From assembly GCF_030384885.1 (NCBI RefSeq), contig NZ_CP128614.1: a stretch of DNA of 64,000 nt. One strand, given 5' to 3'. Of the stretch, positions 15,001 through 18,000 are shown in pieces (position 1 is the stretch's first letter; each line of letters opens with the position of its first letter). Position numbers: made by a program. Source of the stretch: Escherichia coli. GTDB taxonomy: Bacteria > Pseudomonadota > Gammaproteobacteria > Enterobacterales > Enterobacteriaceae.

Positions 15001-18000
15001 ACCAACCATGAATATCGCTATGGTTGGCCTCGGCTGGGATGCCCGTGTAACTGACGGTCAGGCTTTTGACCTGGACGCTTCCGTGTTCGCAGTAGGCGAA
15101 GACGGTAAAGTGCTGTCAGATGCGCATTTCATTTTCTTCAATAACAAAACCAGCCCTGATGGCGCGGTAGAGCACCAGGGCGACAACCGTACCGGTGAAG
15201 GCGACGGTGACGATGAGCAGGTCAAAATCGATCTGACCAAAGTCTCAGCAGATATCAAAAAACTGGTGTTTGCCGTTACCATCTATGATGCAGAAGCGCG
15301 TAAACAAAACTTCGGCATGGTGAGCAACAGCTTCATGCGCGTTTACAACAACGACAACGGCACGGAAATTGCCCGTTTCGATCTGTCTGAAGATGCCTCA
15401 ACCGAAACCGCTATGGTCTTCGGTGAACTGTATCGTCATGGCGCTGAGTGGAAGTTTAAAGCTGTCGGTCAGGGCTTTGCCGGTGGCCTGGCGGCTCTTG
15501 CCTCCCAGCACGGCGTTAACATCTAAAACAACGCTGAATCATACCCCGGCAATGCCGGGGTTTTTTTTGGTTGCGATCCGCTTTCAGGAGGGAGTAGTAG
15601 AAAGGGGACTGGAAATTTCAGAAAGCAGGTCATGTTAATTCAGACCTGAGCCTTTTAAAGGCAGGAAACGGATTTATCTCTGGTTGCTGGTTAAAGCCGG
15701 TATTCCGTGCCTTTTATCAACAGAATGCCCCTCTGATATATGTTACTTTTGCGGTTTATGAAGGAACGGGATCTGGAACATAAGATACCCGGTCAATCAA
15801 AATTCCAGTTCAACAGGTATAGAAACTTCAGCGTGATGAAATATGGTGTCACACCATATATACGCCTCACCAGAAATCCAGCGTCCTGAACTAAGCCTGG
15901 GGAACATATATAAGCGCTGCGCTTTAAAAATAATCAAAAATCAGGAGAGTTAATGTGAATCTACAATCCGGACAAAACATACCGCTTCAGCAATCTGCGA
16001 TCAGGCTGAATCTTCAGTACCCTGCCAAATCCGGCTTTAAAGGCGAACCCGATACCTGCCTCTTCCTGCTTAATGCTCAGGGAAAGGTAACCGGCGATTC
16101 TGACTTTATCTTTTATAATAATCTGTCTTCTCCTGAAGGGGCAGTAAAGCTCGTTACCGGTTCTCAGCAGTCCAGCATTGAGATAGCACTGGATCGTGTT
16201 CCGGCGAACGTCAGTAAGATTGCGATCACCGTTGTCATTGATGGTGAAGATACTATCAGTGGGCTCAGTTTATTGAGCATTCAGGCTCCTGGTATCGCTG
16301 ATTTTCAGGCTGAGACTCAGGGCCGCAGTGAGAAAGCAATCATCCTGGGTGAAGTATATCGGCACAATGGCGCCTGGAAGCTTCGTGCGCTCGGGCAGGG
16401 TTTCAACGGTGGTCTTGAGCCTCTGGCCATTAGCTTTGGCGTTGATGTCGCACAGCCAGCTCCGCAGCCAGCAAAGCCTGCTCGTATCAGTCTGGAAAAG
16501 AAACTTGAAACCAGATCTCCGCGCCTCGTAAGCCTCGCTAAAAAAGCCTCGGTCAGTCTCACTAAAAATAAACTGGACACCCTTGAGGCAGCGGTTGCAT
16601 TTGTACTTGACGCATCCGGCTCAATGAGTGGCCAGTTCAGTAAGGGCAACGTTCAGTCTGTGCTGGACCGCATCGCCGTTCTTGCCGCCCAGTTCGACGA
16701 CGACGGTGAAATGGATGTCTGGGGATTTGGAGAGAAGCACAAGAAGTATCCAAACGTCACACTGGACAACCTGGACACATATATTCAGTCCATTCGCGGG
16801 TCTGGAAAGCGTTCAGCCTGGGAGAACCTGCCGGGACTTGGTGGGACAAACAATGAGCCCCCTGTGATGGAAGAAATTGTCGACTACTTTAAGGACTCGA
16901 AAATCCCGGTATATGTTGTATTTATTACCGATGGCGGGATCAGCAAGACCCGGGCGATTAAAGATGCAATCCGGCGTTCTGCCAACTACCCCATCTTCTG
17001 GAAGTTTGTCGGCCTGGGTGGTTCAAGCTACGGTATCCTCAAAAATCTGGATGACTTTACTGACCGCCGGGTTGATAACACCCACTTCTTTGCCATGGAT
17101 GATTTCGGTTCGATCAGCGATGAAAAGTTATATGATAATTTACTGGAAGAATTCAGACCGTGGATCGATGAAACAAAAAGGTTAGGCATCCTGTAATACG
17201 CACAGTTTTCGCATGGTTAAAGGAGCTCTACAGCAGCTTAATACTGTAGAGCCTTTGTTCACTGGAAATCGTACAGGGAGGAGCATATGGACCGCATCAA
17301 GTACCTGAAATGGATAGCTGAAGAATCACCAACTGATGATGAAATCGACAACTACGATAGTATCATTAGTCGGGGCGCAGAAAGGGCCGAGAAGGTTCAG
17401 TTGTCTTTAAGACGTTAATATACGGGAGTTTAAATGTTCGCAGAAATCAAAGATAATTATTCGTTAGGTGGATAAAGAAAGGTTGCCATTACCAGCTTTC
17501 GACGAGTCGAAAATAAAAACCTTATTTATAGTGACAGGGAGTATGAGCTGACGCTTGCCAATGGAACAATAATTAAAAATGTACTTAGAAAAGAAGAGTG
17601 GGAACTGTTAGAAAGCAATTCAATTAAGGTTATATTATAACGAAAATATATTTACAGTTTTGGATAGGTTTCAAACGAGTCCGGACATTTGTACCTGAAG
17701 TATCTGACATTACAGTTAAGTGACGATTATGCCAGCACGTCTGTTGCTGGCAGCTTAGCTATCGGTCTAAAAGCTGATCCATTAATAATTCTTCGTAAAG
17801 CCCAGAGGTATCGGGCTTTATTACAATATCCGTTATTTCGAAGCGTTCAAGTACAAATTGCAGATATTCCGGAGTAACGTAGTAGGGATCAGGTTCAGCC
17901 AGATTAGTATAGAGTGGGTCTTCTGCTGCATTAATGTCATAATCAATGCACATATGAAACCACTGCAAAGGTGGATCCCAGCCTAACATCACCTGAACAA

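What the first reader, a model, noticed from the sequence alone, without database searches (positions are those of the whole stretch)
17287..17640. Small reading frame interrupted by an in-frame TAA downstream of terF
After the terF terminator there is a 43-aa ORF (17287-17418) and then a frame starting at ATG 17434 that reads 13 codons, hits TAA at 17473-17475, and continues in the same frame for 55 more codons to 17640 (…RKVAITSFRRVENKNLIYSDREYELTLANGTIIKNVLRKEEWELLESNSIKVIL). This is either a recently inactivated small gene or a recoding/readthrough site.
Basis: seen in the sequence. Interest (0 to 1): 0.25.

Follow-up and report, generated by a model that had tools for sequence, protein, structure and literature searches.

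The report
Small plasmid gene killed by nonsense mutation
The interrupted frame is an ordinary, unannotated pseudogene: a 68-codon plasmid gene of unknown function in which one C-to-A change turned a conserved tyrosine codon into a stop, an allele carried by about 98% of the sequenced plasmids that have this locus.

Summary
In detail: ATG 17434, 13 codons, TAA 17473-17475, then 54 more open codons to the stop at 17638-17640.

It is a real small gene ("orf68") inactivated by a nonsense mutation, not a recoding site.
- Relatives encode an intact 68/69-aa protein with TAC (Tyr) at codon 14. They include pCIAM-1, NC_021819, an Edwardsiella tarda chromosome and hundreds of draft contigs.
- Tyr14 is invariant even in homologues only 42-49% identical.
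- The closest intact copies (L015/L016) differ from the window at 7 positions between 17308 and 20640. One of them is 17475 (C in them, A here).
- Intact alleles show purifying selection (for example 7 synonymous, 0 nonsynonymous differences).
- Nothing supports recoding: no RNA structure after the stop, no tRNA gene in the window, and no ATG/GTG/TTG in frame after it.
- About 704 of 717 PLSDB plasmids with this locus carry the stop allele. The window is identical here to the ST3-IncHI2 plasmid pSTM6-275.

The upstream 43-aa ORF is also a relic. A 1,315-bp deletion fused codons 1-16 of a 151-aa gene, in frame, to the last 27 codons of a 92-aa CxxC...CxxC gene.

The cassette is decaying repeatedly: two independent Trp56 stop alleles exist elsewhere, and R478-like plasmids have deleted the gene. 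This is ordinary and of low interest.

The parts
17214..17261 (+). Hairpin after the terF stop codon, terminator-like: 9-bp core stem 17225-17233 / 17244-17252 with a 10-nt loop, followed by CTTTGTTC
   Evidence: Fold gives -16.9 kcal/mol, z = -2.07. The sequence is conserved in pCIAM-1 and R478-like plasmids. Termination itself was not tested.
17287..17334 (+). 5' remnant of orf151: start codon plus codons 1-16 (MDRIKYLKWIAEESPT). This is the first part of the annotated 43-aa ORF.
   Evidence: It aligns to L004:2539-2586 and L003:2638-2683, where the same ATG opens a 151-aa ORF.
17334..17335 (.). Junction of a 1,315-bp deletion relative to the full arrangement (L004:2587-3901 is missing). The deletion removed the rest of orf151, a 171-aa RelB-domain gene and the first 65 codons of orf92.
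   Evidence: blastn mapping and junction sequences with no obvious microhomology.
17335..17418 (+). 3' remnant of orf92: the last 27 codons (DDEIDNYDSIISRGAERAEKVQLSLRR) plus the stop, fused in frame to the orf151 remnant. Together they form the 43-aa ORF 17287-17418, annotated in RefSeq as WP_000374059.1.
   Evidence: L004:3707-3985 encodes a 92-aa CxxC...CxxC ORF ending ...GEDDEIDNYDSIISRGAERAEKIQLSLKR. That ORF is called as a gene in L030.
17424..17428 (+). Shine-Dalgarno sequence (GGGAG) of orf68, 5 nt upstream of the ATG
   Evidence: Read directly and conserved in pCIAM-1.
17434..17472 (+). orf68 pseudogene, codons 1-13 (MFAEIKDNYSLGG). This is the only part that can still be translated.
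   Evidence: Identical to the first 13 residues of the intact proteins P0003 and P0006.
17473..17475 (+). Premature stop TAA at codon 14. The ancestral codon is TAC (Tyr), and the mutation is C>A at 17475.
   Evidence: The codon is TAC in pCIAM-1, in L004-L013 and in L015/L016, which are otherwise almost identical from 17308 to 20640. Tyr14 is invariant in the family alignment. The TAA was confirmed in 5 sampled plasmids from 4 genera.
17476..17640 (+). orf68 pseudogene, codons 15-68 plus the original stop. The stretch is untranslated and contains no in-frame ATG, GTG or TTG.
   Evidence: Identical at DNA level to the intact allele in L014.

Best explanation
Window 17434-17640 is a pseudogene of a small plasmid-borne protein-coding gene, here called orf68 (68 aa, function unknown, four beta-strands plus a C-terminal helix in the predicted model). 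One C-to-A transversion at 17475 changed the invariant Tyr14 codon TAC to the ochre stop TAA. Ribosomes that start at ATG 17434 therefore stop after 13 residues. The remaining 54 codons have no canonical in-frame start and are not translated. The allele is fixed in a near-clonal, very widespread plasmid lineage; the window is identical here to the ST3-IncHI2 plasmid pSTM6-275. The mutation came after an earlier 1,315-bp deletion. That deletion removed most of the upstream genes (orf151, a RelB-domain gene and orf92) and created the 43-aa fusion ORF at 17287-17418. The whole stretch between terF and the convergent orf93 is therefore a decaying accessory cassette. Shown: the stop, its derived state, the single-base difference, purifying selection on intact copies, and the deletion fusion. 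Inferred: that no functional protein is made, and that the loss is neutral or mildly beneficial.
For: (1) Intact homologues have TAC at codon 14: the pCIAM-1 69-aa ORF WP_141227260.1; cluster P0001 with 31 member sequences, of which P0003 is on 510 contigs; and loci L004-L013, including an Edwardsiella tarda chromosome. (2) Direction of change: L015/L016 differ from the window at only 7 positions between 17308 and 20640, one being 17475, and the orf68 DNA of L014 equals the window except at codon 14. Tyr14 is invariant in homologues 42-49% identical. (3) It is a real gene: among intact alleles pN/pS is 0-0.26, for example L007 vs L009 with 7 synonymous and 0 nonsynonymous differences. It has a good SD and a confident AF2 model (pLDDT 88.8). 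(4) Spread: of 717 PLSDB records with the locus, about 12 are intact and about 704 carry the two-mismatch, unannotated allele. Five sampled from Raoultella, Klebsiella (two species), Enterobacter and Salmonella are base-identical to the window, TAA included. (5) Deletion fusion.
Against: No expression data are available, so residual low-level readthrough of UAA cannot be excluded. The stop lineage shows no sequence variation in the downstream 54 codons, which fits recent origin but means relaxed constraint after the stop cannot be demonstrated. One sub-lineage changed TAA to CAA (Gln14), reopening the frame (L018/L019). That could hint at residual value of the gene, but it is a single event.
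Confidence: 0.93

Rival explanations
1. Programmed stop-codon readthrough or another recoding event: the TAA is decoded at meaningful frequency so that a full-length 68-aa protein is still made, possibly at a regulated low level.
For: The frame stays open for 54 codons after the stop, and those codons are identical to the intact allele. Chance openness is about 0.03.
Against: The stop is confined to one near-clonal lineage, and all other relatives have TAC. The perfect preservation downstream is explained by the lineage's recency: 5 of 5 sampled plasmids are base-identical. From general knowledge, UAA is the least leaky stop in E. coli and is not used for Sec or Pyl. There is no RNA structure after the stop beyond chance (z = -0.44), no tRNA gene in the window and no Rfam element.
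Confidence: 0.03
2. Chance open frame in AT-rich intergenic DNA: neither half encodes anything and the 'interruption' is meaningless.
For: RefSeq/PGAP annotates nothing at 17434-17640 in any of the sampled records. No Pfam, PHROG or PADLOC family matches.
Against: An intact ORF is conserved at 42-94% identity across different plasmid backbones and a chromosome. There is a strong synonymous excess, invariant residues and a confident fold prediction.
Confidence: 0.01
3. Adaptive, not neutral, inactivation: orf68 is costly or toxic once its upstream partners (RelB-like gene, orf92) are deleted. Knock-out alleles are therefore positively selected, and the TAA helped the spread of this plasmid lineage. 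This is a refinement of the best explanation, not an exclusive alternative to it.
For: The gene is lost repeatedly and independently: Y14* here; W56* TAG in L030; W56* TGA in the 71% homologue L026; and complete deletion in R478-like plasmids. The ancestral cassette contains a RelB-domain gene (Pfam E = 2.8e-8), with orf92 overlapping it by 4 nt in L030.
Against: The deletion coexists with an intact orf68 in many contigs, including P0006 and P0003 carriers and an E. tarda chromosome, so orf68 alone is tolerated. L030 has its stop while the partners are still present. orf68 has no similarity to known toxins. The TAA>CAA reversion argues, if anything, against counter-selection. Hitch-hiking on a successful resistance plasmid explains the frequency equally well.
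Confidence: 0.12

Closest known systems
Intact orf68 homologues annotated only as 'hypothetical protein': WP_020833827.1 on Salmonella Cubana plasmid NC_021819.1 (its translation equals P0003) and WP_141227260.1 on Citrobacter amalonaticus pCIAM-1
   Same: Same locus downstream of terF, same SD and start. Protein identity is 66/68 with P0003 (the stop and R52K) and 61/66 with the pCIAM-1 protein over the aligned stretch, counting the stop as a mismatch.
   Different: They carry TAC (Tyr) at codon 14 and are translated in full. The window copy stops after 13 codons.
Ordinary bacterial pseudogenes made by a single nonsense substitution, as described in host-restricted Salmonella and Shigella genomes (general knowledge)
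   Same: A single base change creates a premature stop in an otherwise intact frame. The change is recent, so no further decay is visible. It lies in a region that is also losing genes by deletion.
   Different: This one sits on a conjugative plasmid backbone and has been carried to high frequency across several genera by plasmid spread. It is not flagged as a pseudogene in RefSeq annotation.
Programmed stop-codon readthrough, for example the phage Q-beta A1 protein at UGA (general knowledge)
   Same: An in-frame stop is followed by a long open, protein-like frame.
   Different: In programmed readthrough the stop is conserved among relatives and is usually UGA or UAG in a leaky context. Here the stop is UAA, is not conserved, and replaces an invariant Tyr.
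Tni2, the immunity protein of the T6SS effector Tne2 (PDB 6b12_C): closest solved fold to the intact orf68 model

Membership tests
Nonsense-mutation pseudogene of the orf68 family | Homologues exist with an uninterrupted frame and a sense codon at the position of the stop | tested here: met
   The codon is TAC (Tyr) in pCIAM-1, L004-L017 and L036, and intact 68/69-aa proteins sit on hundreds of contigs.
Nonsense-mutation pseudogene of the orf68 family | The parent ORF is a real protein-coding gene (purifying selection, conservation beyond close relatives) | tested here: met
   pN/pS is 0-0.26 among intact alleles. Homologues at 42-71% identity share invariant D7, G13, Y14, F22, R24, R35-E36-Y37, L41 and G44. 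The AF2 model has pLDDT 88.8.
Nonsense-mutation pseudogene of the orf68 family | The stop is the derived state | tested here: met
   All outgroups have Tyr. The nearest intact copies (L015/L016) differ at 17475 and only 6 other sites between 17308 and 20640.
Nonsense-mutation pseudogene of the orf68 family | No route to a functional product (no in-frame restart, no suppressor) | tested here: met
   There is no ATG, GTG or TTG in frame between 17476 and 17640 and no tRNA gene in the 64-kb window. Host-encoded suppressors cannot be assessed.
Nonsense-mutation pseudogene of the orf68 family | Absence of the full-length protein in cells | not testable with these tools
   This needs proteomics, ribosome profiling or a reporter fusion.
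Programmed stop-codon readthrough / recoding site | The in-frame stop is conserved among divergent homologues | tested here: not met
   The stop is present only in one near-clonal lineage, and all other homologues have TAC.
Programmed stop-codon readthrough / recoding site | Leaky stop context or a stimulatory downstream RNA structure | tested here: not met
   The stop is UAA followed by A. The 101 nt from the stop fold no better than shuffles (z = -0.44), and there is no Rfam hit.
Programmed stop-codon readthrough / recoding site | Detectable extended product | not testable with these tools
   Requires an experiment.
RelBE-type toxin-antitoxin module (considered for the ancestral cassette relB171-orf92-orf68) | RelB-family antitoxin gene | tested here: met
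   The 171-aa protein of L004 matches Pfam RelB PF04221 at residues 2-48, E = 2.8e-8 and above the curated cut-off. This holds in relatives only: the gene is deleted from the window.
RelBE-type toxin-antitoxin module (considered for the ancestral cassette relB171-orf92-orf68) | Adjacent RelE/ParE-fold toxin gene | tested here: not met

The most novel reading that the evidence does not exclude
orf68 is the active, costly component of an uncharacterised three-gene plasmid module (RelB-domain protein, CxxC...CxxC protein orf92, orf68). Its repeated independent knock-outs (Y14* here, W56* twice elsewhere, whole-gene deletion in R478-like plasmids) would then reflect selection against it, so the TAA allele would be an adaptive step in the success of this epidemic IncHI2 lineage and not neutral decay. 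An even less likely reading is that trace readthrough of the UAA keeps a very low dose of the protein.
Probability: 0.08. Interest if true: 0.4.

Novelty: new member of a known kind. Interest (0 to 1): 0.1.

Why it matters
The biological importance is small. There are three practical uses.
- **Annotation:** 17434-17640 should be annotated as a pseudogene. The 43-aa 'hypothetical protein' WP_000374059.1 should be recognised as a deletion-fusion remnant and not an independent gene.
- **Lineage marker:** the 17475 C>A substitution is a clean single-base marker for this very widespread IncHI2 lineage. About 98% of complete plasmids with the locus carry it.
- **A lead on dispensability:** the stretch between terF and orf93 is a hotspot of gene loss on IncHI2 backbones. 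That identifies orf151, the RelB-like gene, orf92 and orf68 as dispensable accessory genes whose function could be tested.

Tried and rejected
- **Recoding or readthrough:** rejected. The stop is not conserved, the downstream RNA fold has z = -0.44, ARAGORN finds no tRNA in the window and Rfam finds nothing.
- **Chance ORF:** rejected by the homologues and by dN/dS.
- **Sequencing error:** rejected. The TAA is present in about 700 independent complete plasmids.
- **Function of orf68 by sequence:** Pfam, PHROGs and PADLOC gave no hit. An exhaustive phmmer search of 1.84 billion representatives found only 5 proteins with E < 1e-3.
- **A conserved upstream partner for orf68:** not found. The 48% homologue P0018 has an unrelated 45-aa ORF abutting it. 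P0021 has an unrelated coiled-coil protein upstream. orf92 itself has only near-identical relatives.
- **RelBE toxin-antitoxin assignment for the ancestral cassette:** not supported, because no RelE-like partner was found.
- **Literature:** a search for an existing description of this pseudogene in IncHI2 papers found none among the listed titles and abstracts, which were not read in full.

Full report
**Observation.** The sequence is as described.
- A 43-aa ORF occupies 17287-17418.
- Fifteen bases later, behind a GGGAG Shine-Dalgarno (17424-17428), ATG 17434 opens a frame that reads MFAEIKDNYSLGG.
- The frame hits TAA at 17473-17475 and then stays open for 54 more codons to TAA 17638-17640.
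- From local base composition, a 54-codon open run has a probability of about 0.03. That is suggestive, not conclusive.
- After terF there is a hairpin at 17214-17261 (-16.9 kcal/mol, z = -2.1).

**Where the window comes from.** The region is 100% identical to many IncHI2 plasmids of Salmonella, Escherichia, Klebsiella and Enterobacter, for example pSTM6-275. pSTM6-275 is described as an ST3 IncHI2 plasmid (PMC5923156). In RefSeq records only the 43-aa ORF (WP_000374059.1) and the convergent 93-aa gene (17759-18040, minus strand) are annotated. Nothing is annotated at 17434-17640, not even a pseudogene.

**The TAA is a sense codon elsewhere.**
- In Citrobacter amalonaticus pCIAM-1 (about 89% DNA identity over 17335-17706) the codon is TAC, and a 69-aa ORF is annotated as WP_141227260.1.
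- A protein search finds a cluster of intact 68/69-aa proteins. One allele, P0003, sits on 510 contigs. Another, P0006, equals the window translation with Tyr at position 14.
- Ten loci encoding these proteins, including an Edwardsiella tarda chromosome, all have TAC.
- The closest intact copies (L015/L016) differ from the window at only 7 positions between 17308 and 20640. One is 17475, which is C in them and A in the window.
- The orf68 DNA of L014 is identical to the window except at codon 14.
- The stop is therefore derived, and a single C>A transversion accounts for it.

**orf68 is a real gene.**
- Intact alleles differ mostly at synonymous sites. L007 vs L009 shows 7 synonymous and 0 nonsynonymous differences, and pN/pS among intact alleles is 0-0.26.
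- An exhaustive HMMER search finds a few distant homologues (42-71% identity) of similar length on other plasmids and metagenomic contigs.
- In the alignment Tyr14 is invariant, together with D7, G13, F22, R24, R35-E36-Y37, L41 and G44.
- AlphaFold2 gives a confident model (pLDDT 88.8) with four beta-strands and a C-terminal helix. Tyr14 opens the long second strand. The 13-residue product left in the window therefore cannot form the fold (inference).

**The 43-aa ORF is also a relic.** The fullest arrangement (L004-L007, L030) is terF, orf151, a 171-179-aa gene with an N-terminal RelB domain (Pfam E = 2.8e-8), a 92-aa CxxC...CxxC ORF (orf92), orf68, then the convergent orf93 and orf63.
- The window equals this arrangement minus L004:2587-3901, a 1,315-bp deletion with its junction at 17334|17335.
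- The deletion fuses codons 1-16 of orf151, in frame, to the last 27 codons of orf92. That fusion is exactly the 43-aa ORF.
- Loci L009-L017 have the same deletion but an intact orf68, so the deletion came before the nonsense mutation.
- pCIAM-1 carries an independent, out-of-frame deletion in the same place.
- R478-like IncHI2 plasmids keep orf151 but have deleted the RelB-like gene, orf92, orf68 and most of orf93.

**Frequency.** Of 717 PLSDB plasmids with a match:
- 7 encode exactly P0003, 1 encodes the intact variant P0012, and 4 are pCIAM-1-like;
- about 704 fall in the two-mismatch class (stop plus R52) with no annotated feature;
- five records sampled from that class (Raoultella, K. pneumoniae, K. 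aerogenes, Enterobacter, Salmonella) are base-identical to the window across orf68, TAA included.

The allele is therefore fixed in a recent, very successful plasmid lineage. Its recency explains why the 54 downstream codons show no further decay.

**Recoding tested and rejected.**
- The stop is not conserved outside this lineage.
- It is UAA, which from general knowledge is the least leaky stop in E. coli and is not a Sec or Pyl codon.
- The 101 nt from the stop fold no better than shuffled sequence (z = -0.44).
- The window has no tRNA gene and no Rfam match.
- No ATG, GTG or TTG occurs in frame after the stop.

**Recurrent loss.**
- L030 carries TGG>TAG at Trp56 in a plasmid that still has the full cassette.
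- The 71% homologue in metagenome contig L026 carries TGG>TGA at the same Trp, with recognisable homology continuing after the stop.
- Conversely, L018/L019 differ from the window at 2 of 1,885 aligned bases (15955-17839), one being 17473 T>C. This gives CAA (Gln14) and reopens the frame.
- These are single events and cannot separate neutral decay from selection.

**Function of intact orf68.** It remains unknown.
- There is no Pfam, PHROG or PADLOC match.
- Foldseek against PDB finds no significant match (best E = 0.07).
- My working guess, at low confidence, is that orf68 acts together with the RelB-like DNA-binding protein and orf92, with which it seems to form an operon. In L030 there is a 4-nt overlap and then a 16-nt gap between these genes.
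- No conserved partner accompanies the distant homologues.

**Verdict.** This is an ordinary, recently formed nonsense pseudogene inside a decaying accessory cassette of an IncHI2 plasmid. The value lies mainly in annotation and in a lineage marker. Interest is low.

Noticed in passing
window 17287-17418: The RefSeq-annotated 43-aa 'hypothetical protein' WP_000374059.1 is an in-frame fusion made by a 1,315-bp deletion. It joins codons 1-16 of a 151-aa gene to the last 27 codons of a 92-aa CxxC...CxxC gene.
   Followed up: yes
L030:3001-3207 (Logan SRR7221687 contig): An independent nonsense allele of orf68: TGG>TAG at Trp56, in a plasmid that keeps the full orf151/RelB-like/orf92/orf68 cassette. 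The frame continues after the stop as ELLESNSFKVIE.
   Followed up: partly
L026:197-412 (ENA metagenome contig ERZ27336808): A 71%-identical orf68 homologue also has an in-frame stop at the conserved Trp56 (TGG>TGA), followed by the homologous EILENNSIRIIF. The neighbouring 319-aa ORF is Trp-rich yet open under the standard bacterial code, so TGA is a stop there and not a Trp codon.
   Followed up: partly
L018:3001-3207 and L019:3001-3207: Within the TAA lineage (2 differences in 1,885 bases from the window), codon 14 is CAA (Gln). This is a same-site change that reopens the frame. In L018 an IS21-family element is inserted just downstream and truncates orf93.
   Followed up: partly
L004:3707-3985; L030:2706-2984: A 92-aa ORF with two CxxC pairs (zinc-ribbon-like, only weak Pfam hits) lies between the RelB-domain gene and orf68. 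It is not called as a gene in L004-L008. In L030 its start overlaps the stop of the RelB-like gene by 4 nt, which suggests a three-gene operon.
   Followed up: partly
L003:3195-3330 (R478-like plasmid CP035634) versus window 17982-18040: R478-like IncHI2 plasmids keep only about the first 17 codons of the convergent 93-aa gene (window 17759-18040, minus strand). They lack orf68 altogether, through a different deletion in the same variable region.
   Followed up: partly
window 17150-17334 versus 17308-20640: Mosaic ancestry around the deletion junction. The left side (end of terF and start of orf151) is 100% identical to L030 but 2-3% divergent from L015/L016. The right side is about 99.8% identical to L015/L016 but only 94% to L030. 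This suggests recombination near the junction.
   Followed up: no
L002:2400-2600 (pCIAM-1): pCIAM-1 has its own deletion joining codon 4 of orf151 to the middle of orf92, out of frame (ATGGACCGCATCATATCGTAA). The upstream genes were therefore lost independently while orf68 stayed intact.
   Followed up: partly
window 1-64000: No tRNA or tmRNA gene and no Rfam family at gathering threshold anywhere in the 64-kb window.
   Followed up: yes
L020:4863-5207 (plasmid CP022520.1 type): The 48%-identical orf68 homologue P0018 lies downstream of umuDC-like polymerase genes and next to a convergent ParA-like partition gene. It is preceded by an unrelated 45-aa ORF whose TAG stop directly abuts the ATG, a coupling-like arrangement.
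   Followed up: no
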